NCBI GenBank assembly: GCA_018920315.1
Contig: JAHLMP010000003.1
Location: 43,472-107,471 of the forward strand
Reading direction: 5' to 3'
DNA: 64,000 bases
Source: Candidatus Aenigmatarchaeota archaeon
GTDB lineage: Archaea > Aenigmatarchaeota > Aenigmatarchaeia > GW2011-AR5 > JAHLMP01
Shown: in pieces, positions 44,492-58,887 of the stretch
How positions within the stretch are numbered: position 1 is the first letter of the stretch
Layout: the number at the start of each line of letters is the position of its first letter
Program-made: the position numbers and the translations under genes
Notes under the pieces: model-generated
The model's database searches: none
Seen by the model: only the letters and a program-made list of their open reading frames with translations
Told to the model about the DNA's origin: nothing

Positions 44492-44791
44492 TTATTTATT
44501 CTTTGTTGCTTGGCTTTTTATTATTTTTAGATGTTCTGGTCTTGCTATCACAATCTTTTTTGTTTCCATATCCTTTACTTCTATAATATAGGCCTTTCCC
44601 CTCTTTCCTATTACTTTTCCAACCCTTCCTTGAAACTTTGGATGAGGATGTTTTTTACATGCTGATTGAATATCTATAGCAACCCTATCTCCAATATTAA
44701 ACTCTTTTATAAATAAACTTGGCTTTAAAACATCTTCTTGCTTAAGTTTATATCTTGTTTTTCTTCTAAATCCCCTTGTTTTTATTGTCAT
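44492..44791 (-). CDS. rpl21e: 50S ribosomal protein L21e
   Basis: RGFRRKTRYKL...FNIGDRVAIDIQSA...HPKFQGRVGKVIGKRGKAYIIEV. Confidence 0.95.
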   Translation of the reverse strand: MTIKTRGFRRKTRYKLKQEDVLKPSLFIKEFNIGDRVAIDIQSACKKHPHPKFQGRVGKVIGKRGKAYIIEVKDMETKKIVIARPEHLKIIKSQATKNK

Positions 44792-44873
44792 TTTCTTTTC
44801 ACCATTCTTTATTTTCTTAAAATTTTATTTCCATAAATTTCCAAACAAAAATTAAGTGTTGATTGACTTTTCT

Positions 44874-45230
44874 CTAGCTCTCCTCCTTTAACTCTGGGAA
44901 CATCTTTTGTAATTTTTTGCCACTCTCTTCTAGAGATTCTCTAAGCTTTATCTCGCTTCTTTCTAATACCTTTACCTGAAGGTCGGTCTCTTCGAGAGCA
45001 TCTTTCAATTCTTTTAAAAGCTCTTCTTTGCTTTTCATTATCATAATCGTGCCAGCGATTTTATACGCTTCCTTAACTTCACTTTTCTCTAATTCATTTA
45101 TCGCTTGTTCTATCTCAACCTTTTTAAGCATTAACGCTTGCTTTTGTAATAACATACGCTCTAATTGCTCGCTCTCTTTCTGAAACTTAGCAACTAACTC
45201 TTCAGCTTGTCTTCTTTCCTCTTCATTCAT
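44874..45230 (-). CDS. pfdB: prefoldin beta subunit
   Basis: 118-aa coiled coil-hairpin-coiled coil protein (AINELEKS...EAYKIAGTIMIMKSKEELLKEL). It lies in the conserved neighbourhood with L37ae and rpoP. Confidence 0.85.
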   Translation of the reverse strand: MNEEERRQAEELVAKFQKESEQLERMLLQKQALMLKKVEIEQAINELEKSEVKEAYKIAGTIMIMKSKEELLKELKDALEETDLQVKVLERSEIKLRESLEESGKKLQKMFPELKEES

Positions 45231-45274
45231 CTAAAACACCAAAATTTTGAAGATAAAATTCAAATAAAAGTTAT

Positions 45275-45412
45275 TTAAATAGCATCTACAATCTTTCCAA
45301 CCTCTGGCCTTGGCTTTTTTACAATTCTATATCCACAATAAGGACACTGTACCTTATCCTTTATTTCAAATCTTTTCCTGCAAGACAAACATTCATATAA
45401 AACCATTTTCAT
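45275..45412 (-). CDS. rpoP: RNA polymerase subunit P (Rpo12)
   Basis: Own translation; at 45 aa it is below the track cut-off: MKMVLYECLSCRKRFEIKDKVQCPYCGYRIVKKPRPEVGKIVDAI. Zinc ribbon CxxC...CxxCGYRI. Confidence 0.85.
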   Translation of the reverse strand: MKMVLYECLSCRKRFEIKDKVQCPYCGYRIVKKPRPEVGKIVDAI

Positions 45413-46542: not shown

Positions 46543-48525
46543 ATGAATAGATATGAGGAATTCTTAAGAATAGAAGAGAATCTAAAAGCATTAGTAGAAG
46601 CCTGTGAAGCAAGAAGAATTATTATTGATTTTAATAAGCTAGACCTTTTTGACCCAAGCATAGCGGATAAGCTATTAGAATCGCCAGACGAAGTAATTGC
46701 TGATTTTGAAAAAGCAATTGAAAATATAGAACTTCCAGAGCATGAGAAGATAAATGTAAGGATAAGGAATCTTCCATCACATAGAAACATAAGAATAAGA
46801 AACCTTAGAGCAAAGCATATAAATAAGCTTGTAGAGATAGAAGGCGTTGTCAAGGCTGCTTCTGAGGTAAAGCCACAGATATATGAAGCGATATTTCAAT
46901 GTCCTGAGTGTGGAAATCAAATTGCTGTAGAGCAAAAAGGCGTCACATTAAAAACTCCTGTAGCATGTGATTGTGGAAGAAGAGGGATTTTCAAGCTTAT
47001 AGACACAAAAAAATATGACATAAGATGGCTAACTTTAGAGGAACCTTATGAAATAACAACTGGAGAAAGACCTGGAAAAATTAATGTATTGCTGAAAGAA
47101 GATTTGACTACGCCTGAGATGCAAAGAAAAACAGACCCTGGAAATCAATTAAAGATTGTAGGAATACTTAGGGAGATGCAAAGAAAAGTACAAGGAAAAG
47201 TATCAACAAGACCTGATATTTATTTTGAGGCAATTTATTTAGAGCCAAAAGAAGAAGAGTTTGAAGATATTCAAATCACTGAAGAGGATAGAAAAAAGAT
47301 TGAAGAGCTTGCAAAAGATCCTAATATTTATGATATTTTAATAGATTCTCTTGCGCCAAGCATCTATGGGTGGCGTGAGATTAAGGAAGCGATATTATTA
47401 CAACTTTTTGGAGGAGTGCGTCACAAATTTGAAGATGGTACATATGTTAGAGGAAATATTCACATTTTAATTACAGGCGATCCTTCTACAGCGAAATCTG
47501 TTTTATTATCTAATGTAGTTAAAGCATTGCCTAGAGGCAGGTATGTTTCAGGAAAAGGTGTAACTGGAAGTGGACTCACTACTACAGTAATAAAAAACGA
47601 ACTACTTGGTGGCTGGGTTCTTGAAGCTGGAGCTTTAGTTCTTGCTAACAAATCAATACTTGCGATAGATGAGTTTGATAAGATGAGTAAAGATGACCAA
47701 ATAGCGATGCACGAAGCCATGAGCCTAGAAACAATTAGCATTGCTAAAGCTAGTATAGTAGCAACTTTGCCAGCACAAACCTCTGTATTAGCAGCAGCTA
47801 ATCCAAAGCTTGGAAGATTTGACCCTTTTCGCTCTATTGTTGATCAAGTAGCAATTCCTGAAACTTTATTAAGTAGATTTGACTTAAAGTTCGCTTTAAG
47901 AGATGTTCCTGCAAAAGAGCAGGATGAAGCAATGGTAGAGCATGTCACGCGTTCAAGGATGTATCCTGAAAGTGTAAAGCCAAGAATAGATTTGCAGATG
48001 CTTCGCAAGTATATAAGCTATGCAAGAAAGGTTTGCGAAGATATAAAGATGAGCGAAGAGGCTTCGGAGATGCTAAAAAGATTTTATGTTGAGATGAGAA
48101 GCGCCTACTCTTCTGAAGGAGGAAGCGTTCCTATAACATTAAGGCAATTTGAAGCTCTAATAAGGCTTGCTGAAGCTTCTGCAAAGGTTAGATTGGATAA
48201 TTATGTTAGAAAGGAAGACGCTGAGAGGGCAATAAGATTAATGAAATACTCACTTCAGCAACTTGGATATGATGTTGAGAGCGGTAGATTTGATATTGAT
48301 AAGCTTGAAAGTGGTATTACTGCAAGCCAAAGAAGTAAGATGAGAATAGTTTTGGACCTTATAGATGAATTGGAAACAAAATTAGGAGAAAAGAATATTC
48401 CGATAGAAGATGTTAAAGCTGCTGCAGAAGAGCGTGGCATAGTAGAAATTGATGAAATCTTAGAAAAACTTCAAAGCGAGGGCATAATATTTCAGCCAAA
48501 GCCAGGCTATATAAGAAAGGTTTAA
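46543..48525 (+). CDS. mcm: MCM replicative helicase
   Basis: 660 aa with a Zn finger (CPECGN...CDCG), Walker A (ILITGDPSTAKS), Walker B (AIDEFDKM), an arginine finger (SRFDL) and a C-terminal winged helix. Confidence 0.95.
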   Translation: MNRYEEFLRIEENLKALVEACEARRIIIDFNKLDLFDPSIADKLLESPDEVIADFEKAIENIELPEHEKINVRIRNLPSHRNIRIRNLRAKHINKLVEIEGVVKAASEVKPQIYEAIFQCPECGNQIAVEQKGVTLKTPVACDCGRRGIFKLIDTKKYDIRWLTLEEPYEITTGERPGKINVLLKEDLTTPEMQRKTDPGNQLKIVGILREMQRKVQGKVSTRPDIYFEAIYLEPKEEEFEDIQITEEDRKKIEELAKDPNIYDILIDSLAPSIYGWREIKEAILLQLFGGVRHKFEDGTYVRGNIHILITGDPSTAKSVLLSNVVKALPRGRYVSGKGVTGSGLTTTVIKNELLGGWVLEAGALVLANKSILAIDEFDKMSKDDQIAMHEAMSLETISIAKASIVATLPAQTSVLAAANPKLGRFDPFRSIVDQVAIPETLLSRFDLKFALRDVPAKEQDEAMVEHVTRSRMYPESVKPRIDLQMLRKYISYARKVCEDIKMSEEASEMLKRFYVEMRSAYSSEGGSVPITLRQFEALIRLAEASAKVRLDNYVRKEDAERAIRLMKYSLQQLGYDVESGRFDIDKLESGITASQRSKMRIVLDLIDELETKLGEKNIPIEDVKAAAEERGIVEIDEILEKLQSEGIIFQPKPGYIRKV

Positions 48526-48627
48526 GTTCGCATAATTAATGTTCAAATAAGGAATAAAATTTTTCTATACAAGATTTCTATCAGATTAAAGCTAAAACGT
48601 AATAAATTTAATTGAATTTATGATTTA

Positions 48628-48671
48628 TTGATTAATAGCATTTTACTTTATTACCGTTTGGCTTATAATCT
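48628..48671 (+). repeat. island repeat, copy A (distal half only)
   Basis: TTGATTAATAGCATTTTACTTTATTACCGTTTGGCTTATAATCT aligns with the distal end of copies C and G. Similarity to copy C continues weakly to about 48790. Confidence 0.6.
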
Positions 48672-49166
48672 ATTAGTGCAATAATTAATAAAAAGTAAAG
48701 CCTTTGCTCTTAATATAACTTGTATCATCATTAGTCAGATAATAGCAGTTCAGTTGCTATAGTTGCAGTGTCATTAATTAGTATGAAGTCTTGGATTGAT
48801 TTATTTCTATCTTTGTTGGTTTTAGCTAACAACAAACTTAATTCAGAAGTTTTTGCTAACCTTTTCTTTTCTATTTTTGTTATCTTCAAAGGTTAGCTTT
48901 TTATCTAATATGGTTTTAGATCTTTCTATGATATAGTAAAAATACTGTGGATTTTCTATATATTCTCTTCAGTAACTATAGCTTTTCTATTTGAAGCTGA
49001 AAAATTAAAAACTTCCTGAAGATTATTTCTTTTAAAAAAAATCAATTGCTTATTCCCTTAATCTTAGAAATCTGTATGCTTTGTTATATCTCATAACATC
49101 TATTGCATAAGGCACAAACATAAGGTCGCTTAAAAATTTAAATACTTTGTGTCATAATAGATACAT

Positions 49167-49745
49167 ATGTGTCAAAAAAGAAACAGAATTTTAATTTTAT
49201 TTTGTTCTGACTTTAGAAGGAAGCTCTATCTCAGAGAGATTTCTAAACTGTCTAAAATTCCATTAAAAACAACATCTCGTATTATGAAAGATTTGGAAGA
49301 AAAAAATATTATTAGATATAATCTTGAAGGAAAACACAAGTATTTTGAACTAAATTTAGATAACATCGAAACAAAGTTTCTCTTAATAGAGGCTGAAATT
49401 AGTAAAATGTTTTCTTTTCTTAAAAAGTATCCTATATTTAATTCGTTTTTAAAGGACATAACTCTTGTTAATGGAATTATTTGTGTATTTGGTAGTTTCT
49501 CAGAACTCAAAGCAACGAAAGATAGCGATCTTGACATTTTAATTGTGTCTGACAAAAAAATTGAGTTGCCAAAGCATTTATTGCCTTACAAAACTAATGA
49601 GATACATTTGAATAGAAAAGAGTTCCTATCAGCCTTAAGTAAAGGTGAGCCACTTGTAAGAGAGATTTTAGCAAATCATACAATCCTACACAATCATAGT
49701 AGCTTTATTGATATTCTATGGTGGTATTATGGAAAAAAGAGTTAA
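49167..49745 (+). CDS. wHTH-fused minimal nucleotidyltransferase (MNT-type)
   Basis: 192 aa with an N-terminal wHTH (YLREISKLSKIPLKTTSRIMKDLEEKNII) and the NTase motif VFGSFSELKATKDSDLDILIV. Confidence 0.85.
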   Translation: MCQKRNRILILFCSDFRRKLYLREISKLSKIPLKTTSRIMKDLEEKNIIRYNLEGKHKYFELNLDNIETKFLLIEAEISKMFSFLKKYPIFNSFLKDITLVNGIICVFGSFSELKATKDSDLDILIVSDKKIELPKHLLPYKTNEIHLNRKEFLSALSKGEPLVREILANHTILHNHSSFIDILWWYYGKKS

Positions 49746-50199
49746 ATGGTGTTTTAGAGTAAAAGATGGGGCAAAAATGACTAAACCAAGCAAGATCATT
49801 TCAGACTCATATATAGAATTAGCGAAAAATACATTAAAAAGAGTTGAAACTATGTTAAATGAGAAGGATTTCTTATGGGCTACTGTTATGATTTACTATG
49901 CTGAATATTATGCTCTTTATTCGTTTTTGAGAAGAATTGGTATAAAATGTGAAAATCATTTTTGTTCTATTTTATTAGCAACATGTTTGCTGGGAAAAGA
50001 AATAACTAAAACAATTGAAGAACATAAAGATAGAAGAATTGATGCCCAGTATTATCTGAGGATCGTTAGGGAAGATAAGATAAATGAGATGTTTAGATCT
50101 GCAAAAATCTTTGTAGCAGAATTTGAAGATATTGTTTCAAAAATAAATGAAAGGAAAATTAGATTTTTTAGAAATAAGATTAAAAGATTGCTAAGATGA
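49729..50199 (+). CDS. HEPN domain protein (partner of the preceding NTase)
   Basis: All-alpha ~155-aa protein that overlaps the NTase stop. It carries a YYAEYYALYSFL helix and a DRRIDAQYY block equivalent to the R-x-x-x-Y region of its paralogues. The track ORF starts at 49708. Confidence 0.7.
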   Translation: MEKRVKWCFRVKDGAKMTKPSKIISDSYIELAKNTLKRVETMLNEKDFLWATVMIYYAEYYALYSFLRRIGIKCENHFCSILLATCLLGKEITKTIEEHKDRRIDAQYYLRIVREDKINEMFRSAKIFVAEFEDIVSKINERKIRFFRNKIKRLLR

Positions 50200-50210
50200 T
50201 CGCTTGTTGT

Positions 50211-50280
50211 AAATAGCACGCGAAGAAAATAATTCAAAATATTTTCCTCGTTAAGCAATGCTGCTTTGAAATCCTTCATC
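50211..50280 (+). repeat. island repeat, copy B
   Basis: AAATAGCACGCGAAGAAAATAATTCAAAATATTTTCCTCGTTAAGCAATGCTGCTTTGAAATCCTTCATC, starting 11 nt after the HEPN stop. Confidence 0.8.
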
Positions 50281-50607
50281 TTTAGCTTTTATCTAGATCA
50301 ATCCATTTCTCATTTGCAAAATATCTATATGGCAAGTTAATCGTAGAGTAGTAATTCTTAAGAGAGTGGTGATTCTTAAAATTCTTCTTAGTTTTTGCTA
50401 GTTTTTGCTAGCGCAACCATAATTCTACTTTATTAGCCAAATTCATTTTTCTAGGTTTTCCTACACATATCCTAAGAAGTGCTATAAGAAGAAAATGTCA
50501 AGCAAATAGAGAAGGTTAAGTAAAACAATTATGATTAGAGTAAGTATTAAACATTAGTGGAATATAATGTACTAAAAATTTAAATATAAGTGGAATTAAT
50601 AAATATT

Positions 50608-51912
50608 ATGGAAGAAAAGGAGCTTTTAAAATATAACGAGTGGTGGGAAACAGGAAAGGTAAGCGAAAAAAATTTAGAAGCATATAAAAGATATCTTTTT
50701 TACATAATTTTGAAATTCATTCAAGATAGACAAATTATACTAATAACTGGATTGAGACGTGTTGGTAAAACGAAATTGCTCTATCAAATTATTCATAATT
50801 TGCTTGAAAATGGAGTTGATCCAAGAAAAATCCTTTATTTTTCATTTGATGAAGAAGCTTTTGATATAAAAGATGTTTTAGAAACTTATAAAAAGAGTAT
50901 TTTGAGAAAGGATTTTAAAGATGTTGATAGAATTTATGTGTTTTTTGATGAGGTTCATAAGTGTAAAGATTGGGAAAACAAGATAAAGGTTTATTATGAT
51001 TTAAATCCAAACATCAAATTCTTTCTTTCTGGCTCAGCATCTCTAATAATCTCGAAACAAGCAAAAGAAAGCTTGGCTGGAAGAATTTATGAGTTCGTTC
51101 TCAAGCCATTAACATTTAAAGAATTTTTAGAAATGAAAAATGTTGAAGTAAGTTTTGAAGATGCAAAGCTTTTCAATGAAAAGATTTTGCTTTATTTTAT
51201 TGATTTTGTTAGAAAGGCCGGATTCCCAGAAATAATTAATGAAGATGATGATGAAAAAATTAGAACATATATAAAACTATCAGTTGTTGAAAGAATAATT
51301 TACAAAGACATACCAAAACAATTTGGAAAAACTGATATAGAGCTATTGGAAAATTTAACTAACATGTTTTTCAAAAACCCTGGATTAATTCTAAATTTTG
51401 AAAATTTGTCTAAAGACTTGAGAAGGGATAAGAAAACGATAATGAATTATGTTTATTATCTCAAGTTTTCTTTATTGATAAACTTGGTTTCAAATTTTAG
51501 AATAAGTATTCTCGCAACCTCAAGAAAAAATAGAAAGGTTTATCCAGTATCATCTTCTCTAATTTTCTCATTATATGGAATGTTTGATAGAAATATTTGG
51601 GGAAAGGTTTTAGAATCAATTTTTTGCAGCGAGACTGAAGCAAAATATTATTTCAGAAAAGGTAAAAAAGAGATAGATTTCTTGATATTAAAAGACAATA
51701 AAATAATTCCAGTTGAAATTAAGTATGCAATTTCTGAAAGTGAAATAAAGGATTTTATATCTTTATTAAAAAGCTTAAACATTAACAAAGGAATTATTCT
51801 CACATTTGACAAATTCGAAAAAATTCATGAGAAAAATTTTAAAATATTAATCTATCCTCTATGGCTTTACCTCCTTTTTGAAGATAGAATTCTAGAGGAA
51901 CTTGATTTTTAA
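50608..51912 (+). CDS. AAA+ ATPase, AAA_14/DUF4143 type
   Basis: N-terminal YNEWWETGKV, Walker A ITGLRRVGKTKL and Walker B-like YVFFDEVH, with a C-terminal PD-(D/E)xK-like EIDFLILKD...PVEIKY. The ATG at 50608 is preferred to the track GTG at 50590. Confidence 0.85.
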   Translation: MEEKELLKYNEWWETGKVSEKNLEAYKRYLFYIILKFIQDRQIILITGLRRVGKTKLLYQIIHNLLENGVDPRKILYFSFDEEAFDIKDVLETYKKSILRKDFKDVDRIYVFFDEVHKCKDWENKIKVYYDLNPNIKFFLSGSASLIISKQAKESLAGRIYEFVLKPLTFKEFLEMKNVEVSFEDAKLFNEKILLYFIDFVRKAGFPEIINEDDDEKIRTYIKLSVVERIIYKDIPKQFGKTDIELLENLTNMFFKNPGLILNFENLSKDLRRDKKTIMNYVYYLKFSLLINLVSNFRISILATSRKNRKVYPVSSSLIFSLYGMFDRNIWGKVLESIFCSETEAKYYFRKGKKEIDFLILKDNKIIPVEIKYAISESEIKDFISLLKSLNINKGIILTFDKFEKIHEKNFKILIYPLWLYLLFEDRILEELDF

Positions 51913-51914
51913 GC

Positions 51915-52070
51915 AAACAGCACGCGAATAAAATAATTCAAAATAAACTTTTTCATCGAACAAGGACATTTAAAGTCTTTAGCAGCAAGCTTAGTTCTAC
52001 TTGCTAGAGCTAAAGCATAGATTGTTAACTGATTAATAGCATTCATTTTTCAGCATCTGGCTTATAATCT
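51915..52070 (+). repeat. island repeat, copy C (full length)
   Basis: AAACAGCACGCGAATAAAATAATTCAAAATAAAC...GCAAGCTTAGTTCTACTTGCTAGAGCTAAAGCATAGATTGTTAACTGATTAATAGCATTCATTTTTCAGCATCTGGCTTATAATCT, starting 2 nt after the ATPase stop. Confidence 0.8.
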
Positions 52071-52200
52071 AAAATGTGGATTAATTCATTCTTCAGTTGC
52101 AAAATGTCTATTGCTATTCTTGTGCTATCATTTATTAGCATAAAGTTTGTATGCAAGGGGTCTTTCTTGCTTTTAAATAGTAATGCTAGCTTTGGCGATG

Positions 52201-52234
52201 ATAAATTTTATATATCAAATGATATAAAATTTAT
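52201..52234. promoter_or_regulatory. 13-bp perfect inverted repeat just upstream of the NTase start (candidate operator)
   Basis: ATAAATTTTATAT (52201-52213) pairs with ATATAAAATTTAT (52222-52234). The ATG is at 52238. Confidence 0.45.
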
Positions 52235-52237
52235 ATC

Positions 52238-52819
52238 ATGAAGAAAATAGAAATTTTGGAAAAGATTTATTTGAATCCTGGAATACACTTGAGAGAAATA
52301 GCGAGAAGAACAGGGCTTAGTATACCAGCAGTAAAAAATCACATAGATAAATTTCTAAGAGAAAAGGTTATAACAAAAAAGAAAGAAGGAAGGAATGTTA
52401 AGTTTTTCATCAACTTTAAGAGCAGAAAGATCATACCATATCTATCTGAGGTAGAGACATTTAGGTTGGAAAAGTTGCCTGAAAGGGTTGGCAACGCTGT
52501 AGTAGATCTTCTCTCTATTCTAGAAAATAAACCTTTAGTTACAATAATTTTTGGGTCTTATGCAAAAGATGATTACACCAAAGAGAGCGACCTAGATATT
52601 TTACTTGTCTTTAACAAAATAGATAGGGAAATAGAAGAAAAAACTAAATTAATTTGTTCCCGTTATTACCTAAAGGTTCGGCCTGTTTATCTGTCGTGGA
52701 AAGAATTTAAAGAAAAATTCTTCGACACTAAAAACGTCTTCATGCGCGAGATAAGAGAAAATAAGCTCATTGTCAATGGTATTGAATATTGGGTGATGCT
52801 GGAAAATGAAAAGGCCTAA
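52238..52819 (+). CDS. wHTH-fused minimal nucleotidyltransferase (MNT-type)
   Basis: 193 aa with a wHTH (HLREIARRTGLSIPAVKNHIDKFLREKVI) and IFGSYAKDDYTKESDLDILLV. Confidence 0.85.
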   Translation: MKKIEILEKIYLNPGIHLREIARRTGLSIPAVKNHIDKFLREKVITKKKEGRNVKFFINFKSRKIIPYLSEVETFRLEKLPERVGNAVVDLLSILENKPLVTIIFGSYAKDDYTKESDLDILLVFNKIDREIEEKTKLICSRYYLKVRPVYLSWKEFKEKFFDTKNVFMREIRENKLIVNGIEYWVMLENEKA

Positions 52820-53360
52820 CTGGAAAGTTTGGTTAGAAAACAGAAAGGAATGTAAGAAATGGAACAATTTCTATCTACAAAAGAAAATTCTAAGAAAACA
52901 GAGTTTAAAACCTAAAGATTACTTTATAAAGGCCTTACATAATTTAGATTTTGCGAACTGGATTTATGAAAAACATAAAAATGAGATAAAGAACTTATTT
53001 GGTGAACAAAGATTTTTTGATTGGGTAATTGTGATTTACTACTATGCTATCTACCATGCTGCTCTTGCTCTAATAGCTTCTAAAAATTTGTTTTCTAAAT
53101 CTCATTTAGCTACTTTGAATGCGCTAATTCTATATTTTTACCATGAGAAAAAAATAGAGAAGGAAGATGTAGAGATTGTGATTGAATCTATTTCTAAAGT
53201 TCTTGAAAGAGAAGATATAGAAACTATAGTAGAAACAAAGGAATTAAGGGAGAGAGCTAGTTACGGAGCAAGCTACGAATTTGAAGAATCTTTAGTAGAA
53301 ACTGCAAAATCGAATGCAATAAAGTTTATAGAAAAGGTTAGAAGCATATTAGAGATATAA
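52806..53360 (+). CDS. HEPN domain protein
   Basis: 184 aa, overlapping the NTase end by 14 nt. It has IYYYAIYHAALALIASKNLFSKSH and ELRERASYGASYE blocks. Confidence 0.75.
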   Translation: MKRPNWKVWLENRKECKKWNNFYLQKKILRKQSLKPKDYFIKALHNLDFANWIYEKHKNEIKNLFGEQRFFDWVIVIYYYAIYHAALALIASKNLFSKSHLATLNALILYFYHEKKIEKEDVEIVIESISKVLEREDIETIVETKELRERASYGASYEFEESLVETAKSNAIKFIEKVRSILEI

Positions 53361-53371
53361 TTATTTCTGAG

Positions 53372-53463
53372 AAATAGCATGCTAAGAAAATAATTCAAAA
53401 TATTTTCCTCGTTAAGTAATGCTGCTTTGAAATCCTTTACTGCAAGCTCTGTTCTCAAACTAA
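53372..53463 (+). repeat. island repeat, copy D
   Basis: AAATAGCATGCTAAGAAAATAATTCAAAATATTTTCCTCGTTAAGTAATGCTGCTTTGAAATCCTTTACTGCAAGCTCTGTTCTCAAACTAAG, starting 11 nt after the HEPN stop. Confidence 0.8.
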
Positions 53464-53473
53464 GTATAAGATA

Positions 53474-53888
53474 TTATCTTGCTAGTTCTCTTTCTATAAT
53501 AGATTTTAGTTTCAAGAATAAAGTTTTACCCATTTCTACATTTCTTTCTACTGTTTCTTCACTTAGAATCTTACCATAATATTTTATCCCATGCCTCTTC
53601 TTTTTTAATTTGTGTAATAATTCTGTTTCATAATTATCAAGGTATTTTCCTCTCAAAAATTCGATTGCACATTCATGGGGAAAGAGTTTTTAACCCTTCT
53701 AAAGCCAGAAAAGCGTGGCATAATTCGATGACAGATTCATAAATACCTTCAAGCACAAATATTGAACAGCCTTTAGAAGAAAAGAAATTAAATCTACTAG
53801 AGGCCATTTTGAAGAGGGATTTTGCTAATTCTTTATCTTTAGTTCTTTTTTCTACCAAGTTTAGTCTAACACATTTTTCCCAATTCAT
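53474..53888 (-). pseudogene. HEPN gene split by a 1-nt frameshift in a C4 (plus-strand G4) run
   Basis: ORFs 53673..53888 (...ALEGLKTLSP*) and 53474..53656 (RGKYLDNYE...KKKRHGIKYYG...) are the N and C halves of one HEPN. Deleting one C from the run at 53677-53680 gives ...LEGLKTLSHECAIEFLRGKYL..., which restores the conserved S-H helix. Confidence 0.75.
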
Positions 53889-54421
53889 TACAAGACCTTG
53901 AAGTATCCTTTTATTACAAAACCATTAATGAGATTATTAAGCAATTCTGGATTTTCTTTTTTTACTATTTCTAAGTTTTTTACAAATAGCAAAGAGATAT
54001 TTCTATTCAATTCCTTCTCTATTTTTTTAAAATTAATTTCAACTTCTTTTGCACCGATAATGCACAAGTCAAAATCACTATTTTCTATATCCTCGCCTCT
54101 AGAAGCAGAACCAAAAAGTATTATTGCATCAAAGTCCTCTAGCTCTTTTTCTATGATATTACCAATCTCAAAAGCTTTTAGTAAATTGTAAATTATTTTA
54201 TATTTTTTATAGTTTTCACTTTCACAGTTTGCTTTGAAGATAGATAAATTTTTTTCCTTACTTTCGAGTATCATACCTTCTCTTTTTAGTCTACTAATTG
54301 AAAATCTAACCTTTACTGGGCTCCATTTTAGTAATCTACATATCTCTCGTAAATGAAACGAATAAAGAGGTTTTTTAATAAACAGTTCTAATAATTTCCA
54401 TTCGTTATATTTTTCTAACAT
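53888..54421 (-). CDS. wHTH-fused minimal nucleotidyltransferase (MNT-type)
   Basis: 177 aa with a wHTH (HLREICRLLKWSPVKVRFSISRLKREGMI) and ILFGSASRGEDIENSDFDLCIIG. Its stop overlaps the start of the split HEPN. Confidence 0.85.
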   Translation of the reverse strand: MLEKYNEWKLLELFIKKPLYSFHLREICRLLKWSPVKVRFSISRLKREGMILESKEKNLSIFKANCESENYKKYKIIYNLLKAFEIGNIIEKELEDFDAIILFGSASRGEDIENSDFDLCIIGAKEVEINFKKIEKELNRNISLLFVKNLEIVKKENPELLNNLINGFVIKGYFKVL

Positions 54422-54433
54422 ATGTAATATTTT

Positions 54434-54449
54434 TATATCAATTGATATA
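54434..54449. promoter_or_regulatory. perfect 16-bp palindrome upstream of the minus-strand NTase (candidate operator)
   Basis: TATATCAATTGATATA, 13 nt upstream of the start at 54421. Confidence 0.45.
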
Positions 54450-54465
54450 TAAATCTAACGTTTAT

Positions 54466-54550
54466 AAACTGCATGAAGAAGAAAAATTCATAATAAGCTT
54501 TGTCATTAAATGCTGCTTTGAAATCCTTTAATTACGAGCTTAGTTCTCTC
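54466..54550 (+). repeat. island repeat, copy E
   Basis: AAACTGCATGAAGAAGAAAAATTCATAATAAGCTTTGTCATTAAATGCTGCTTTGAAATCCTTTAATTACGAGCTTAGTTCTCTC. It has the same orientation as the other copies although both flanking genes are on the minus strand. Confidence 0.75.
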
Positions 54551-55884
54551 TAGGAAATGAGGGACAAAAACAAGCTAACAGGAAGTATTAAAATATTATT
54601 GGCTTCATCAAAGTTTAATATATCTTTAGAAAGTATAATTTTATTTTTTATATCAACTTTTGGAAAATCTTTAAAACTAACTCCTTCTTGCCATTTGACT
54701 TCAATACCGAAATCGCCAAAGCAAATGTCAATCTCCTTTTTGTTATGATAGAAGCCTATTTTTAGTTTATCCTTTATACATCTTGTTAAATTTTCAACAA
54801 CAATACCCTCAACGATCTTCTCATAGTTTTCTATCTCTTTTTTTCCGGTTAATTTTCTCTGTATTACATGATACAAGAAAGGATCTATAAAATATACTTT
54901 TCTCATCTTTCTGTAAACTACAAGTTTTTTATTTAAATCAAAAGTGTGAAAGTTTTTAATTACAAACAAATCTTCTAATATTTCTAAATATTCTCTTACT
55001 GTTACATGAGATCCTATCTCTACTTCTTTTGCAATTGAACTAAGGGAAAATTTTGTTGAATAATTTTTTAATATACCCAAAAGCAAGCCACTAACTATCT
55101 TTTCGCTTCTATTTATCTTTGCTATATCGTGGATTAGCCATTTCCAGTAAATGTCATAAGTTTCCTCTTTTATATCTCCATTTTCCATTAATTCATAAAA
55201 AGCCCTTGGAAATCCTCCGCATTTTAAATATTTAAAGAAAAGCTTGTTGAGCTCGTCGATATAGAAAAACATCTTTTTTGCTTTTCCAAAAACTTCATTT
55301 AAGTTAATAAAATTGATCTTTTCCAAATTTTTCTTTAACTCTTCACTTCCAAATATATTTATGAATGATCGAAATGAAAGAGGGAGAAATTCTTTTATTT
55401 CAATTGCTCTGCCAGGAAAGCTTTCCTTTTTAAGTGCTAGGGAAGAGGAGCCAGTTATATAAAAAATTTTTTCTTTTGATAATGGCGAATCTAGAATATA
55501 TTTTACTGCTCTTTCCCAATTCTCTACAAAACTTATTTCATCAAGAAAAACGTATTTTTCACCTTCTATAAACATATCAAGCTTTCTAACAAGCTCTATT
55601 ATTTCTTCAAAATTTCTTAACATTTCGCAGCTAAAATAGAATACCTTCTTAGGGTCTATGCCTTTGTTGAACAATAAATCATATATCAAAAGCTTAAAAT
55701 AGGTTGTTTTTCCAGTTTGTCTTGGACCAAAGAAAAGCATGTTAGATTTCCTTTCAAAACTATACAAAAGCTTGCTATTTCTTGAGAAAGCTTCTTTTAT
55801 TTTATCATCTTCTAATATTCTATCCTTAGATATCCACCAAGGATTTTGTTCTCTAATTAATGTTTCATCTACCATAATTGACAA
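54550..55884 (-). CDS. AAA+ ATPase, AAA_14/DUF4143 type
   Basis: EQNPWWISKD, Walker A FFGPRQTGKTTY, Walker B-like YVFLDEISF, and a C-terminal EIDICFGDFGIEVKW nuclease-like block. Confidence 0.85.
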   Translation of the reverse strand: MSIMVDETLIREQNPWWISKDRILEDDKIKEAFSRNSKLLYSFERKSNMLFFGPRQTGKTTYFKLLIYDLLFNKGIDPKKVFYFSCEMLRNFEEIIELVRKLDMFIEGEKYVFLDEISFVENWERAVKYILDSPLSKEKIFYITGSSSLALKKESFPGRAIEIKEFLPLSFRSFINIFGSEELKKNLEKINFINLNEVFGKAKKMFFYIDELNKLFFKYLKCGGFPRAFYELMENGDIKEETYDIYWKWLIHDIAKINRSEKIVSGLLLGILKNYSTKFSLSSIAKEVEIGSHVTVREYLEILEDLFVIKNFHTFDLNKKLVVYRKMRKVYFIDPFLYHVIQRKLTGKKEIENYEKIVEGIVVENLTRCIKDKLKIGFYHNKKEIDICFGDFGIEVKWQEGVSFKDFPKVDIKNKIILSKDILNFDEANNILILPVSLFLSLIS

Positions 55885-56019
55885 TTAAATGTCAATAATT
55901 AAATATTTTTTGATAGAAGAATGTCAATAATTTATAATCAATTATATATAACGGCAAGTTTTATAACTAAAATATTTAAGTTTTGACAGACAATTCTTAG
56001 AATTTCCGAATAGATTCGT

Positions 56020-56338
56020 TTTTAAAGGAAAATGGCTTTGATATCTCACACAAAAAATACTCTAATGCACTAATTCTAAATTTTTATCATGAGAAGAAGG
56101 ATTAAAAAAGAAGATGCAGAAACTACAGCCAAATCTATTTTCAAAGTTCTTGAAAATGGATTCGAAAAAACTAAGTTGAAACAGGAAATAAGAGAAAGAG
56201 CAGTTATGAGAGTATCTAAAATAAGCAAGGTTTAGCGAATAAAATACTTAGACAACTTGCGAGATTAGACAAGAGGTAGAGGAAGCTGTTAAAAATGCTG
56301 AATTTGTCATAAAGGAAATAGAAAAACTAATCCTCTAA
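56020..56338 (+). pseudogene. decayed HEPN gene remnant
   Basis: ...SNALILNFYHEKKD* and later ...EEAVKNAEFVIKEIEKLIL* align with the intact paralogue at 52806..53360 (LNALILYFYHEKKIEKEDVE...; ESLVETAKSNAIKFIEKVRSILEI). They are broken by stops and frameshifts, and the N-terminus is missing. Confidence 0.6.
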
Positions 56339-56445
56339 ATAAAAAATATGCAAAGAAAAAAATTCAAAATAAACTTTTATCATCAAACCAAGGAGATTTA
56401 AGATCTTTTGCCACTTGCTAGAGCTAAAGCATAGATTGGTTCATG
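56337..56445 (+). repeat. island repeat, copy F
   Basis: AAATAAAAAATATGCAAAGAAAAAAATTCAAAATAAAC...CCACTTGCTAGAGCTAAAGCATAGATTGGTTCATG. Confidence 0.75.
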
Positions 56446-56480
56446 TTCTATACCTTCGAGATCAAATAAAAGTCTTACGG

Positions 56481-56499
56481 AGTATAAAATATTTATACT
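56481..56499. promoter_or_regulatory. 8-bp-arm inverted repeat upstream of the NTase (candidate operator)
   Basis: AGTATAAA-ATA-TTTATACT, 21 nt upstream of the ATG at 56520. Confidence 0.4.
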
Positions 56500-56519
56500 T
56501 TCGTATACAAAAATTATAT

Positions 56520-57134
56520 ATGTTGAAAAGGCTCGTAATATCTAGAACAAGAGTCAAATTATTAAAACTATTTTTTTTAAATAGGGAAAGGGAATTCTAT
56601 CTAAGAGAAATAGCTAAATTAACAGGAGATAATTTAAATTCTGTGAGAAGAGAATTAAATAATCTGGTAAAAATTAAAATAATAGAAGAGAGAAAAAGAG
56701 GTAATCAAAAATTATATAAAGTCAACAAGAACTCCCCAATTCATGAAGAATTAAGAAAACTTATTTTGAAGACAGTCGGAATTGGTGATACACTTAGAGA
56801 GAACTTATTAAAATTAAATAACGTAGTATATGCTTTAATTTATGGTTCTTTTGCTACTGGAGAAGAAGTTGAAGAAAGCGATATAGATTTACTAATTGTT
56901 GGTGATTTAGATGAAGAAAAAGTTATCGAAGTAATAAGACGATTAGAATATGAACTAACAAGAGAAATCAACTATATTTTGTGGAGCACAAAAGAATTTG
57001 AAAAAAGAGTTAAGGAAAGGAACCATCTTCTTTTAGACATAGTTGAAAAACCTATAATTATGATTATAGGTGATGAAAATGAGTTTAGGAAAATTGTTAA
57101 GGGATGGATTAATAAGAAAAATAAGAGTCGATAA
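56520..57134 (+). CDS. wHTH-fused minimal nucleotidyltransferase (MNT-type)
   Basis: From the ATG at 56520: MLKRLVISRTRVKLLKLFF...YLREIAKLTGDNLNSVRRELNNLVKIKII and LIYGSFATGEEVEESDIDLLIVG. The track ORF begins at a TTG at 56415, inside repeat copy F. Confidence 0.85.
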   Translation: MLKRLVISRTRVKLLKLFFLNREREFYLREIAKLTGDNLNSVRRELNNLVKIKIIEERKRGNQKLYKVNKNSPIHEELRKLILKTVGIGDTLRENLLKLNNVVYALIYGSFATGEEVEESDIDLLIVGDLDEEKVIEVIRRLEYELTREINYILWSTKEFEKRVKERNHLLLDIVEKPIIMIIGDENEFRKIVKGWINKKNKSR

Positions 57135-57522
57135 AAGTTTAGTGAGAAAATCATTTTCCATAGCAGAAAGAGACTTAAACACAGCGAAAAAGGTTTTCGA
57201 AAGCGGAAGTTACGGTTGGTCTCTTGCTATAGCTTATAATTCAATGCTCCAAGCCGGAAGAGCTTTAATGTTTTTGAATGGGTTTAAGCCTACTAATCGA
57301 TATCAACATATAGCTGTAATTAGATTTACTCATATAGTTTTTGGTAAAGAAATTACTGATAGAATGATTAACATTTTTGATAGGTTGAGGGAAAAGAGAC
57401 ATAAGGTTGTGTATGAAGAGGTAGATATTATTTCTGAAGATGAAGCTAGGAATGCAATAGAATGGGCATGTGAATTCGTATCAAAAGTTAAAGAGATATT
57501 GAGAAAGAAAAAACTTATCTAG
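57073..57522 (+). CDS. HEPN domain protein
   Basis: ~149 aa that overlaps the NTase end. It has WSLAIAYNSMLQAGRALMFLNG...YQH and LREKRHKVVYEE, an R-x4-6-H-compatible block. Confidence 0.8.
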   Translation: MKMSLGKLLRDGLIRKIRVDKSLVRKSFSIAERDLNTAKKVFESGSYGWSLAIAYNSMLQAGRALMFLNGFKPTNRYQHIAVIRFTHIVFGKEITDRMINIFDRLREKRHKVVYEEVDIISEDEARNAIEWACEFVSKVKEILRKKKLI

Positions 57523-57532
57523 TTCTTTAAGT

Positions 57533-57675
57533 AAATAGCATGTAAAGGGAAAAATTCAAAGTAACTTTTATCATCAGACCAAGCGTACTTGAAATATTTT
57601 ACAGTAAGCTTTGTTCCGTTTGCTAAAACATAGATTGTTAACTGATTGACCACATTCACTTTTTCGGCATGTCTA
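57533..57675 (+). repeat. island repeat, copy G (full length, diverged)
   Basis: AAATAGCATGTAAAGGGAAAAATTCAAAGTAAC...CATAGATTGTTAACTGATTGACCACATTCACTTTTTCGGCATGTC, starting 10 nt after the HEPN stop. Confidence 0.75.
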
Positions 57676-57722
57676 TGGTTCGAATAGAAAGATTTAAATA
57701 GTATTATATATATTTATATAAT

Positions 57723-57986
57723 ATGCAAAGGCTACACTTGCTTCATTACCCAAGATTGGATACTGTGTTAATGGTAGAGGAAGCTATAAAAAAAGCCAAG
57801 GAATATCCATCAAAAAGACAGCTTTGGCTTTCCTTACCTAAAAAAATCATGTACCAGACATTTAATCTGATCTTAGAATATCTAGAAGAATCAGGAAAGA
57901 TTGTGATAAAGGGAGGAAAAATAATCTGGATATGGAACCCAGATTTGGTAGAGAAATATCTTAAATCAAAATTAGTGATCAAATGA
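57723..57986 (+). CDS. small hypothetical protein (possible wH / antitoxin-like)
   Basis: 87 aa. Its TGA overlaps the ATG of the following RelE-like pseudogene (ATGA at 57983-57986). Confidence 0.5.
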   Translation: MQRLHLLHYPRLDTVLMVEEAIKKAKEYPSKRQLWLSLPKKIMYQTFNLILEYLEESGKIVIKGGKIIWIWNPDLVEKYLKSKLVIK

Positions 57987-58314
57987 AAAATGAGAGGCAA
58001 GTTTTTGTTGTATTTGCCGATGAAAAGCTGAAATAAATTTTTGAAAAACTTAAAGAAAAGATCCAACTTTACATAAGTTCATCGCCAGAGCAATAAACGA
58101 TTTAAAAGAAAACCCATTTTGTGGAATAGCAATCCCAAAAAGATTGATACCAAAATTTTACATTCAAAGATACGAAATAAACAACCTTTGGAAGTATAAC
58201 TTACCTGGAGCATGGAGGCTTCTTTATTCTATTGCTGGTAATAGAGTAAGCATAATTGCAATAATTCTAGAATGGCTTTCTCATAAGGAATACGAAAGAA
58301 AATTCAAATATTAG
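57983..58314 (+). pseudogene. RelE/ParE-like toxin gene with premature stop and frameshift
   Basis: MKNERQVFVVFADEKLK* with a TAA at 58034-58036. After a frame change near 58055-58060 it reads KDPTLHKFIARAINDLKENPFCGIAIPKRLIPKFYIQRYEINNLWKYNLPGAWRLLYSIAGNRVSIIAIILEWLSHKEYERKFKY*. Confidence 0.6.
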
Positions 58315-58324
58315 TCTCTTTTAT

Positions 58325-58385
58325 AAACAGGACGTGAAGAAAATAATTCAAAATAGTTTTTCTTGTCAAACTTTGCTACTTGTCC
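58325..58385 (+). repeat. island repeat, copy H
   Basis: AAACAGGACGTGAAGAAAATAATTCAAAATAGTTTTTCTTGTCAAACTTTGCTACTTGTCC, starting 10 nt after the RelE-like stop. Confidence 0.7.
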
Positions 58386-58887
58386 GGTAATTGGTGTGTG
58401 GTAATTTTCAAAGTCAAAAGTAAAGCCCTTTTGTTTAAAGTATTTTATGTCATCTTGAGTTAAATAAACAGGAGCTTCACAAGCTATTGACCTAGTTCAG
58501 CTAACTTATTTGCTAGGTTTTGTTTTTCCAGTTTTATAATTTTTAGCAAAATCCTCTGGTTTAAAAATTTTTATCGCTTACTTCCTTAGTCTAATGAAAG
58601 TGCAAATTTTAAAATATTCTTTTATTTTGCTCTAGTGTATAGCCTTAGATCGTAGATTGATAGAGTTTTAAGGATGATATTTATCTGGTGTTACGTTTTC
58701 TTAATTTTCCTATCTTCTGGATTTTGAAATCGAAAAAGAAAAACCTTTTCAAATTAAAATTTTTCTCTTGACCTCTTTCTAATCAAGCTTTTGACAAAAA
58801 AAGCAAATTCAAAAATAATTTTTCGAAGAAATATTCTTATCTTAAAGAAAGATTCGCTCAAGTTTAAATTCCCTCAAGTTTAAAGAT

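What the first reader, a model, noticed from the sequence alone, without database searches (positions are those of the whole stretch)
48590..58390. Seven gene cassettes downstream of mcm, each bounded by the same co-oriented 60-160 nt repeat
Eight copies of one element lie on the plus strand:
- A 48628-48671
- B 50211-50280
- C 51915-52070
- D 53372-53463
- E 54466-54550
- F 56337-56445
- G 57533-57675
- H 58325-58385

The proximal core is AAA(T/C)AG(C/G)A(C/T)G..AAGAAAATAATTCAAAATA..TTTTC. It is followed in the longer copies by ..GCTGCTTTGAAATCCTT..GCAAGCTTAGTTCT..CTTGCTAGAGCTAAAGCATAGATTGTTAACTGATTAATAGCATTCATTTTTCAGCATCTGGCTTATAATCT.

Six copies (B, C, D, F, G, H) begin 0-11 nt after the stop codon of the preceding plus-strand gene or pseudogene. 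The copy next to mcm (A) retains only the distal half.

The orientation is constant even where the enclosed genes are inverted (53474-55884). This argues the repeat belongs to the array scaffold rather than to each gene's 3' UTR.

Read on the minus strand, the element has coding character. Examples are ...NQLTIYALALASRTKLAAKDFK..., ...KDFKAALLNEENILNYFLRVLF, and in copy G NQLTIYVLANGTKLTVKYFKYAWSDDKSYFEFF.

That is what would be expected if the 3' end of a target gene were duplicated repeatedly by site-specific integration, or if a convergent gene had decayed in every unit. No integrase or recombinase is visible in the window. The layout is cassette-array-like, but I do not recognise it as a classical integron.
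Basis: partly seen in the sequence, partly recalled or inferred. Interest (0 to 1): 0.8.

Follow-up and report, generated by a model that had tools for sequence, protein, structure and literature searches.

The report
Nuclease-gene tails bounding toxin-antitoxin cassettes
The repeat is the decayed 3' end of a nuclease gene, copied after each of seven toxin-antitoxin or defence gene cassettes in a tiny (DPANN) archaeon, and related genomes show the cassettes being gained, lost and reordered by recombination inside these copies, like an integron without an integrase.

Summary
Seven co-oriented copies (B-H, nhmmer E 1e-13 to 1e-27) and one partial copy (A) lie between mcm and a DUF2341 surface-protein gene.

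On the minus strand every copy is a pseudogene fragment of one gene, here called X. Intact X is about 340 aa: an IS1/InsA-like zinc-ribbon N-terminus plus a RecB/Cas4-like PD-(D/E)XK nuclease. The repeat is X's highly conserved last 25-60 codons.

The units hold wHTH-MNT/HEPN pairs, AAA_14/DUF4143 ATPases and a ParE/RelE-like pair.

In other DPANN genomes an intact X is followed by such cassettes, each with an orphan X tail. All 14 orphan tails are downstream and co-oriented.

Relatives differ by whole cassettes and in cassette order. Two polymorphisms have breakpoints inside a tail, one of them within the same species.

No attC-like hairpin, no family-wide DNA-level site and no integrase were found.

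Best reading: cassettes carrying a 5'-truncated X fragment insert and excise by Campbell-type, probably homologous, recombination at the X tail, and the relics then erode. Whether X catalyses this is open. I rate it a new variant of a known kind, and no literature search turned up a description.

The parts
48624..48904 (-). X pseudogene fragment A. It covers the middle of the nuclease (about aa 69-180 in P0016 numbering), is frameshifted and lacks the C-terminal tail. It is the terminal copy next to mcm.
   Evidence: tblastn; body-HMM hit 48746-48886; 74-84% nt identity to the L046 X gene.
49167..50199 (+). Cassette 1: wHTH-MNT nucleotidyltransferase (49167-49745) plus HEPN (49708-50199).
   Evidence: Pfam NTP_transf_2, Polbeta and HEPN.
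50205..50394 (-). X fragment B. It is a tail with a frameshift and an internal deletion, plus a short body remnant.
   Evidence: nhmmer E 7e-21; tblastn and body-HMM hits; shares a frameshift and 95% identity over 66 nt with D.
50590..51912 (+). Cassette 2: AAA_14/DUF4143 ATPase.
   Evidence: Pfam; PADLOC PDC-S01 at E 1e-67.
51904..52192 (-). X fragment C. It is the longest copy (about aa 90-227) and has two frameshifts.
   Evidence: nhmmer E 2e-26; tblastn; three-frame layout.
52238..53360 (+). Cassette 3: wHTH-MNT (52238-52819) plus HEPN (52806-53360). The same cassette, joined to the same X fragment, occurs in L001, L010, L085, L086 and L046.
   Evidence: Pfam; 78-86% nt identity with different neighbours.
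53366..53470 (-). X fragment D: tail only, frameshifted.
   Evidence: nhmmer E 3e-25; tail-HMM positions 13-40.
53474..54421 (-). Cassette 4, inverted: MNT (53888-54421) plus a split HEPN-position ORF (53474-53888).
   Evidence: Pfam for the MNT; ORF list; 79% nt identity to L046 2800-3759.
54461..54552 (-). X fragment E: tail only, decayed.
   Evidence: nhmmer E 2e-17.
54550..56330 (.). Unit 5: inverted AAA_14/DUF4143 ATPase (54550-55884, minus strand) plus a HEPN3-like pseudogene C-terminal half (about 55990-56330, plus strand).
   Evidence: Pfam; repeat D12; blastn to the L001 and L086 HEPN genes.
56335..56452 (-). X fragment F: tail with an internal deletion and a frameshift.
   Evidence: nhmmer E 4e-22.
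56520..57522 (+). Cassette 6: wHTH-MNT plus HEPN. It is also present in L085 and L046.
   Evidence: Pfam; 80-90% nt identity.
57525..57690 (-). X fragment G. It is the only copy with an uninterrupted reading frame over the whole tail. It is also the site of the strain polymorphism seen in L084.
   Evidence: nhmmer E 2e-27; tail-HMM positions 1-48; L084 diverges inside it.
57723..58314 (+). Cassette 7: small wHTH antitoxin-like gene (57723-57986) plus a frameshifted ParE/RelE-like toxin (57986-58314).
   Evidence: 42-45% aa identity to the L007 pair, which also sits between X tails; ParE_like Pfam hit for the L007 partner.
58319..58546 (-). X fragment H. It has body plus tail, with an internal deletion of about 45 codons that removes the catalytic motifs. 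It sits where the anchor X gene sits in relatives, directly downstream of the DUF2341 gene.
   Evidence: tblastn and body-HMM hits; L009 and L023 have DUF2341 followed by a full-length X gene.

Best explanation
**What it is (shown).** Each repeat is a relic of the 3' end of one gene, X, read on the minus strand.
- X encodes an IS1/InsA-like zinc-ribbon DNA-binding N-terminus fused to a RecB/Cas4-like PD-(D/E)XK nuclease.
- The copies look alike because the last roughly 50 codons of X are extremely conserved at the protein level (ILDYKP..QLTIYALALAS.TKL..KDFKCAWFDE.NYFEFFPLHAVY).
- The DNA between copies holds self-contained toxin-antitoxin or defence modules.

**How it works (inferred).** X is the anchor of a cassette array.
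- A cassette travels as [module + 5'-truncated X fragment].
- A circular copy recombines with the tail of the resident X, or of any orphan tail, in a single Campbell-type crossover.
- This places the module directly after the X stop codon and leaves a duplicated tail behind it.
- The reverse event, recombination between two tails, loops a cassette out.
- Repeated rounds give X-cassette-tail-cassette-tail with all tails co-oriented, whatever the orientation of the cargo.
- The crossovers appear to be homology-driven and fall at variable points inside the tail, rather than at a fixed core.
- The relics then erode by frameshifts and deletions.

**State in this window.** The anchor copy (H) is itself dead, so the array is a partly fossil one. 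Even so, it still differs between strains of the same species.
For: **Identity of the repeat.**
- The reconstructed peptides hit the PF12705 family at E 6e-40.
- The DNA profile built from the window's copies matches the 3' end of most X genes fetched, 74 of the 80 loci, bacterial ones included.
- Intact X carries the IS1/IS1595 zinc domain (NF050000) and the N-terminus of the IS1 transposase.
- X has a RecB/AddAB/Cas4-like fold, weakly supported.

**Not a plain segmental duplication.**
- Paralogous cargo genes are only 23-35% identical in protein.
- The tails fall into at least two sequence groups.

**Generality and polarity.**
- In L007, L010, L013, L015, L021, L045, L046 and L055 a full-length or contig-truncated X gene with its own tail is followed by TA cassettes and orphan tails.
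- All 14 orphans are downstream and co-oriented (p = 4e-9).

**Cassette turnover.**
- Cassette 3 keeps its junction to an X fragment starting near aa 85-90 in several genomes with different neighbours.
- L046 holds cassettes 4, 6, 2 and 3 in another order.
- L015 has a PIN/UPF0175 cassette inserted right after the X stop, followed by a displaced tail remnant. L018 lacks that insertion.
- L010 has one hybrid tail where the 96%-identical L085 has tail-two cassettes-tail. The switch point lies in a 10-nt run of identity.
- The same-species assembly L084 switches to a different X fragment and a different neighbour inside copy G.

**Homology rather than a fixed site.**
- Synonymous sites in the tail are unconstrained across 56 intact genes.
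- Orphan 5' ends are scattered.
- There is no hairpin.
Against: - Tail identity of 57-84% is low for efficient RadA-type homologous recombination.
- No circular cassette junction was observed. Reads could not be examined.
- In L046 and L009 the same kinds of cassettes lie side by side with tails absent or reduced to traces. Tails are therefore not needed to keep the array, and erosion has to be assumed.
- The terminal copies in the window (A) and in L001 lack the tail, which the simple model does not predict.
- The L084 junction comes from a metagenome assembly and could be chimeric.
- The two mapped breakpoints lie within about 10 codons of each other, near the NQLTIY codons. A preferred site is therefore not excluded.
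Confidence: 0.6

Rival explanations
1. X itself drives the process. Its InsA-like domain binds a site in or next to its own 3' end, and its PD-(D/E)XK domain nicks or cuts there. Repair from an ectopic tail-bearing template, or strand transfer, then captures the cassette. This would be an integrase-free gene-capture enzyme.
For: - A full-length or contig-truncated X gene with its own tail sits at the upstream end of every array that has an anchor.
- The domain pairing is transposase-type DNA-binding domain plus nuclease.
- Both mapped breakpoints fall near the NQLTIY codons.
- Many contigs break at X, which suggests it is multi-copy.
Against: - Bacterial X loci show no orphan tails (0 of 22, against 7 of 31 archaeal loci).
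- There is no DNA-level constraint in the tail across the family.
- The window's array has no intact X, yet it differs between strains.
- No biochemical data exist.
Confidence: 0.17
2. This is a site-specific recombinase system of the integron, Xer or integrase type acting in trans. The tail would contain an att-like core, and a recombinase encoded elsewhere in the genome would insert and excise the cassettes.
For: - The layout is integron-like: small promoter-bearing cassettes, co-oriented boundary elements, and cargo in either orientation.
- The proximal edge of the repeat is sharp in every copy.
Against: - There is no recombinase in the 64-kb window, and none beside X in the gene tables of L001, L090, L092 and L093; the only recombinase genes there are IS transposases in L093, 0.8-8 kb from its X gene, one of them interrupting it.
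- Neither DNA strand forms an attC-like fold (z from -2.7 to +0.9), and there is no Rfam hit.
- Synonymous sites are free.
- The sharp proximal edge is simply the end of the X coding region.
- The mapped crossovers lie mid-repeat.
Confidence: 0.13
3. There is no cassette mobility. An ancestral [X + TA] unit was tandemly duplicated in place, and all but the conserved gene ends decayed. The repeats would then be passive relics of convergent paralogues.
For: - A, B, C and H keep pieces of the gene body.
- L014 looks like a tandem or circular [X + one gene] unit.
- L006 has two X copies.
Against: - Cargo paralogues are only 23-35% identical, while tails B and D are 95% identical over 66 nt and share a frameshift.
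- Cassette order and content differ between close relatives, with breakpoints in the tails.
- Orphans are almost always 3' fragments lying downstream of the intact gene. Random decay does not predict this.
Confidence: 0.08

Closest known systems
Integrons and CALINs (clusters of attC sites lacking an integrase), including the archaeal integrons of Ghaly et al. 2022 (PMC9668308)
   Same: - Arrays of small, 0.5-2 kb cassettes.
- Cassettes rich in toxin-antitoxin genes.
- Each cassette ends in a co-oriented boundary element, whatever the orientation of its cargo.
- Growth is next to an anchor.
- Cassette order is shuffled between relatives.
   Different: - The boundary element is a fragment of a protein-coding gene, not an attC.
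- It has no R''/L''-L'/R' palindrome or folded strand.
- There is no IntI.
- Crossovers lie at variable points within about 60-300 nt of homology.
- Cassettes carry their own TATA boxes.
Orphan toxin/immunity arrays downstream of rhs and cdiA genes (the C-terminal displacement model; from my own knowledge)
   Same: - A full-length anchor gene is followed by co-oriented 5'-truncated copies that keep the 3' part.
- Each truncated copy is linked to a small conflict-system module.
- The arrays are thought to arise by recombination in a conserved stretch of the anchor gene.
   Different: - In rhs and cdiA the displaced 3' tips are the variable toxins, and the conserved part lies upstream of them.
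- Here the duplicated 3' end is the most conserved part of the protein.
- Here the variable cargo consists of separate genes.
Tandem genomic islands integrated Campbell-fashion into the 3' end of a tRNA or protein gene, with the gene end duplicated as attL/attR (from my own knowledge)
   Same: - The anchor gene is kept whole.
- A direct repeat of its 3' end marks the far side of each insert.
- Successive inserts stack up in tandem.
   Different: - Those islands carry their own integrase.
- They have a short, fixed att core.
- They are usually 10-100 kb long.
- Here the units are 1-2 kb, lack a recombinase, and their repeats have variable 5' ends.
IS1 InsA / IS1595 N-terminal zinc-binding domain, and RecB/AddAB/Cas4 PD-(D/E)XK nucleases (for protein X)
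   Same: - The N-terminus matches NF050000 and the first roughly 90 residues of the IS1 transposase model.
- The C-terminus matches PF12705 and keeps the D..(D/E)xK and QxxxY motifs.
- The fold is nearest to the RecB, AddA and Cas4 nuclease domains.
   Different: - There is no DDE catalytic domain, so X is not an IS1 transposase.
- Only one conserved cysteine is present in the C-terminal part, so a Cas4-type 4Fe-4S cluster is unlikely.
- No helicase partner is present.

Membership tests
Integron / CALIN | attC sites: imperfect palindromes (R''-L''...L'-R') whose single strand folds into a hairpin | tested here: not met
   - All seven copies were folded on both strands as DNA.
- Their z-scores run from -2.7 to +0.9 against shuffles, and no common structure appears.
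- No inverted-repeat arms lie within the copies.
Integron / CALIN | IntI tyrosine recombinase next to attI (not required for a CALIN) | tested here: not met
   Pfam scans of the array ORFs and of 37 other window ORFs gave no Phage_integrase or other recombinase hit. The rest of the genome was not available.
Gene-3'-end-targeting integrative elements | Direct repeats made of the 3' end of the target gene flank each insert, and an intact gene lies at one end | tested here: met
   - All repeats are X 3' ends.
- In 8 other loci the full-length or contig-truncated X is the upstream-most copy.
- In the window that copy (H) has decayed.
Gene-3'-end-targeting integrative elements | The element encodes its own integrase and has a fixed att core | tested here: not met
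   - Cassettes are 1-2 kb and hold only TA or defence genes.
- Orphan 5' ends are scattered.
- Crossovers lie mid-repeat.
MITE / IS-derived repeat | Terminal inverted repeats, target-site duplications and insertion in either orientation | tested here: not met
   - No terminal inverted repeats were found.
- All copies are co-oriented, 7 of 7 in the window and 14 of 14 elsewhere.
PD-(D/E)XK nuclease, PDDEXK_1 (PF12705), for X | Catalytic D...(D/E)xK core and the RecB-family QxxxY motif | tested here: met
   - Intact homologues keep GHID...ILDYKP...QLTIY.
- They match PF12705 above its cutoff in three of the four tested, L007, L010 and, at 21.8 against 22 bits, nearly L015.
- The window's own copies are broken. 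H lacks the motifs and the others are frameshifted.
IS1 family transposase, for X | InsA-type zinc ribbon/HTH plus a DDE transposase domain | tested here: not met
   - The zinc domain is present (NF050000, 28.6 bits against a cutoff of 28).
- The match to the IS1 model covers only model positions 1-92 of 199.
- The remainder of the protein is a PD-(D/E)XK domain.
MNT-HEPN toxin-antitoxin modules (cargo) | An adjacent minimal nucleotidyltransferase gene and HEPN gene | tested here: met
   Three intact pairs and one degraded pair carry NTP_transf_2/Polbeta and HEPN hits. Activity was not tested.

The most novel reading that the evidence does not exclude
X, an InsA-like zinc-ribbon/HTH domain fused to a PD-(D/E)XK nuclease, is the dedicated enzyme of a previously unrecognised gene-capture platform in DPANN archaea that needs no integrase. 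It would cut at its own 3' end and load toxin-antitoxin or defence cassettes there, using the conserved coding tail as a portable address shared across species.
Probability: 0.17. Interest if true: 0.9.

Novelty: new variant of a known kind. Interest (0 to 1): 0.64.

Why it matters
- DPANN archaea have tiny genomes, and how they acquire and turn over accessory and defence genes is poorly understood.
- Here is a recurrent, recognisable architecture: an anchor nuclease gene, then cassettes, each closed by a copy of the anchor's 3' end. It behaves like an integron but has neither attC nor IntI.
- It gives a simple sequence signature (orphan X tails) for finding hypervariable defence/TA islands in Nanoarchaeota, Woesearchaeota and Aenigmatarchaeota.
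- It explains why many 'partial PD-(D/E)XK nuclease' ORFs are annotated in these MAGs and why assemblies break there.
- It poses a testable question: is the IS1-like/PD-(D/E)XK fusion protein a new kind of recombination-initiating enzyme, or just a conserved landing pad for homologous recombination?

Tried and rejected
- **attC-like folding.** Both strands of all copies fold no better than shuffles.
- **Rfam.** A scan of 48000-59000 gave only one chance-level snoRNA hit.
- **A DNA-level recombination core in the X tail.** Codon usage at conserved residues is near maximum entropy across 56 intact genes.
- **A conserved motif just past the X stop.** Only generic archaeal TATA boxes (TTTAAATA) of the downstream cassette are seen.
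- **An integrase or recombinase in the window.** None was found.
- **X on viruses.** There was no hit in IMG/VR.
- **Circular X plasmids.**
  - L002's terminal overlap belongs to a contig carrying tatC, so it is probably chromosomal.
  - The circularly permuted MNT/HEPN contigs L087 and L088 contain no X fragment.
- **PDB sequence search with X.** Nothing was found. The structure model is only moderate (pLDDT 60) and its fold matches are weak.
- **Literature.** Five completed full-text searches and two papers were read. No description of this architecture turned up. That is not proof of absence.
- **A small functional minus-strand ORF in each repeat.** Rejected, because 6 of 7 tails are frameshifted or truncated.


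Full report
**1. The observation**

The window is AT-rich (about 30% G+C). It carries archaeal housekeeping genes: MCM, PCNA, ribosomal proteins L21e and L37ae, prefoldin, FtsZ, Pus10 and a form III RuBisCO. Its nearest relatives among the fetched loci are labelled Candidatus Aenigmatarchaeota, a DPANN lineage.

A profile built from the listed copies finds seven matches in the whole window. All lie on the + strand between 50205 and 58400, with E values of 2e-13 to 2e-27. The next hit has E 0.7. Pairwise identity is 57-84%, with exact runs of up to 33 nt. The copies begin 2-11 nt after the stop codons of the preceding + strand genes. Their orientation does not change across the two inverted units. 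The listed extents are too short for A, B, C and H.

**2. What the repeat is**

Three-frame translation of the minus strand shows one protein tail, interrupted by frameshifts in most copies. An alignment of the frame-corrected peptides hits a family of PD-(D/E)XK nucleases (PF12705) at E 6e-40. The hits come from Aenigmarchaeota, Woesearchaeota, Nanoarchaeota and some bacteria. I call this gene X.

- **Architecture.** Full-length X is about 335-385 aa.
  - Its N-terminus matches the IS1/IS1595 zinc-binding domain and the first roughly 90 positions of the IS1 transposase model, that is, InsA-like.
  - Its C-terminus carries the motifs GHID...ILDYKP...QLTIYALALAS and a very conserved end, KDFKCAWFDE.NYFEFFPLHAVY.
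  - A moderate AlphaFold model (pLDDT 60) is closest, weakly, to the RecB, AddA and Cas4 nuclease domains.
- **The repeat.** It is the last 25-60 codons of X. The window's own DNA profile recognises the 3' end of most X genes fetched, 74 of the 80 loci, bacterial ones included.
- **State of the copies.** All eight are pseudogene fragments.
  - A (48624-48904) keeps the middle and lacks the tail.
  - C (51904-52192) is the longest.
  - H (58319-58546) has lost about 45 codons, including the catalytic motifs.
  - Only G keeps an open frame across the tail.
- **Family size.** It is modest: 737 clusters at 50% identity with E <= 1e-10. There are 373 loci among species-representative genomes.

**3. 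The cargo**

| Unit | Content | Evidence |
|---|---|---|
| 1, 3, 6 | wHTH-MNT + HEPN pairs | |
| 4 (inverted) | wHTH-MNT + HEPN pair, degraded | |
| 2 and 5 | AAA_14/DUF4143 ATPases (PADLOC candidate PDC-S01) | |
| 5 (second remnant) | HEPN pseudogene | |
| 7 | small wHTH protein + frameshifted ParE/RelE-like toxin | |

The paralogues are only 23-35% identical in protein. By contrast, tails B and D are 95% identical over 66 nt and share a frameshift. The block is therefore not a simple segmental duplication that diverged as a whole.

**4. The same architecture elsewhere**

A full-length or contig-truncated X gene with its own tail is followed, 0.5-2 kb apart, by orphan X tails in L007, L010, L013, L015, L021, L045, L046 and L055. 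No intact X is seen in L001, L085 and L086, but orphan tails are present there too.

- **Cargo between the tails.** It consists of AbiEii/AbiEi, DUF3368-type PIN/UPF0175, HicB, MNT/HEPN and wHTH/ParE-like modules.
- **Polarity.** All 14 orphans in loci with an anchor X are downstream of it and co-oriented (p = 4e-9).
- **Taxonomic spread.** Orphans occur in 7 of 31 archaeal loci with at least 3 kb of downstream flank, against 0 of 22 bacterial loci (p = 0.03).
- **Synteny with the window.** In L009 and L023 a full-length X gene (frameshifted in L009) lies directly downstream of a DUF2341 gene. That is the position of H in the window. H is therefore the decayed anchor.

**5. Cassette-level change between relatives**

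- **(a) Cassette 3 in new contexts.** Cassette 3, together with the X fragment that begins near aa 85-90 just upstream of its MNT gene, recurs at 78-86% nt identity in L001, L010, L085, L086 and L046. Its neighbours differ in each.
- **(b) Different order.** L046 carries cassettes 4, 6, 2 and 3 at 79-90% nt identity, in a different order. The homology blocks end exactly where the window's tails begin. Its inter-cassette gaps hold only traces of X.
- **(c) A clean insertion.** L015 and L018 are 82-94% identical around X. L015 has a PIN/UPF0175 cassette inserted right after the X stop codon. A displaced tail remnant follows it, then the intergenic sequence that follows X directly in L018. The same cassette follows an X end in L001, L015 and L034, each time starting at its TATA box.
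- **(d) A hybrid tail.** L010 and L085 are 96% identical. Where L085 has tail G', two cassettes and tail D', L010 has a single tail. That tail matches G' upstream and D' downstream, and the switch lies in a 10-nt run of identity.
- **(e) Within one species.** Three other assemblies share an identical MCM protein and 99.8-99.9% nt identity with the window. Two of their contigs end in or just beyond a repeat. The third, L084, follows the window up to the middle of copy G and then continues into a different X fragment and different downstream DNA.

**6. Tests of a site-specific mechanism**

- Neither strand of any copy folds better than shuffled sequence in a consistent way.
- Rfam gives nothing.
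- Across 56 intact X genes, codon choice at the conserved tail residues is almost maximally varied. The conservation is therefore at the protein level, and the family shares no DNA core.
- Orphan 5' ends are scattered from body-HMM position 196 to tail-HMM position 28.
- No integrase or other recombinase is encoded in the window. None lies beside X in the annotated contexts of L001, L090 or L092; L093 carries IS transposases near X, one of which interrupts it.
- X is absent from IMG/VR.

**7. Mechanism**

The data fit single-crossover (Campbell-type) insertion and excision of circular [module + 5'-truncated X fragment] units at the tail of X, or of any orphan. This model explains five things:
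- the co-orientation of the tails regardless of cargo orientation;
- the position of the only full-length copy at the upstream end;
- the heritable junction between a module and the X fragment that follows it in X-sense orientation;
- the hybrid tails;
- the mixed sequence groups of tails within one array.

What is shown is the identity of the repeats, the recurring architecture, the cassette polymorphisms and the breakpoints inside tails. What is inferred is the circular intermediate and the enzyme.

I favour host homologous recombination, because the crossover points vary, microhomology is seen at a switch, and no DNA core exists. An initiating role for the X nuclease remains possible, and so does an unlinked recombinase.

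Several points weaken the model:
- tail identity is low;
- in some relatives the tails are eroded or absent;
- the terminal copies in the window and in L001 lack the tail;
- everything rests on metagenome assemblies.

**8. Comparison and novelty**

The array works like an integron or CALIN but fails the attC and IntI tests. It resembles the rhs/cdiA orphan arrays in polarity and the tandem islands at gene 3' ends in topology. It differs from both in the nature of the repeat and in having no element-borne recombinase.

Five completed full-text searches and two papers gave no description of it. I rate it a new variant of a known kind. It is of real interest for DPANN genome plasticity and as a lead to a possible new recombination-initiating nuclease.

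Noticed in passing
L087 1-1593 and L088 1-1589: Two JGI samples yielded circularly permuted 1.46-kb contigs, L088 with a 127-nt terminal overlap. They hold only an MNT+HEPN pair and a small antisense ORF, with no X fragment. This is either a tandem repeat or a free circular TA cassette.
   Followed up: partly
L014 1-2232: This 2.15-kb contig has a 78-nt terminal overlap. It consists of one X gene plus one MqsA-like zinc-finger/AbrB gene. It is either a circle or a collapsed tandem [X-cassette] array.
   Followed up: partly
L068, L070, L073-L075, L077, L078, L080, L081 (CPR bacteria): X is next to a conserved protein of about 150 aa that looks like a four-helix bundle, downstream of X in eight loci and upstream in L080. 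In L075 and L081 the X gene is interrupted by 200-440 nt. No orphan tails are present there.
   Followed up: no
window 58888-62574; L009 5241-9374; L023; L004, L010, L035, L070, L073, L074, L081: X often lies directly downstream of very large secreted or surface-protein genes. These are DUF2341 proteins or proteins with tail-fibre-like repeats, in both DPANN and CPR genomes.
   Followed up: partly
L086 1-7230 against window 37130-45375: In this relative the segment that corresponds to window 37.1-45.4 kb, and presumably mcm as well, is inverted. One breakpoint lies at the edge of the cassette array.
   Followed up: no
window 52207-52229 and 54431-54453: A near-perfect palindrome, TATATCAAATGATATA, lies just upstream of the MNT genes of cassettes 3 and 4. 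It is probably the operator of the wHTH-MNT protein.
   Followed up: no
window about 50245, 51950, 53405, 54498, 56375, 57567 and 58358 (+ strand): The antisense of the X codons D-(D/E)-K-x-Y-F gives runs of 3-5 T about 25-45 nt after each cassette's stop codon. These might act as archaeal terminators and help explain why the tails persist.
   Followed up: no
window 53474-53888, 55990-56330 and 57986-58314: Several toxin-side genes are broken: a split HEPN in cassette 4, a HEPN3-like half gene, and a frameshifted ParE/RelE-like toxin. Their partner genes remain open.
   Followed up: partly
L093 5967-10203: The X gene is split by an IS carrying a DDE_Tnp_1 transposase. A PIN toxin-antitoxin pair follows its tail.
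   Followed up: no
window 24925-25767: A protein that combines an ATP-cone, an Mrr-type restriction endonuclease domain and an AF1548-like C-terminal domain sits among housekeeping genes. Window 498-1577, 2420-3898, 12843-14957 and 18002-19936 encode large proteins with no Pfam match.
   Followed up: no
L001 8867-11896: The IF-2 gene next to the L001 array carries an intein with a LAGLIDADG domain.
   Followed up: no
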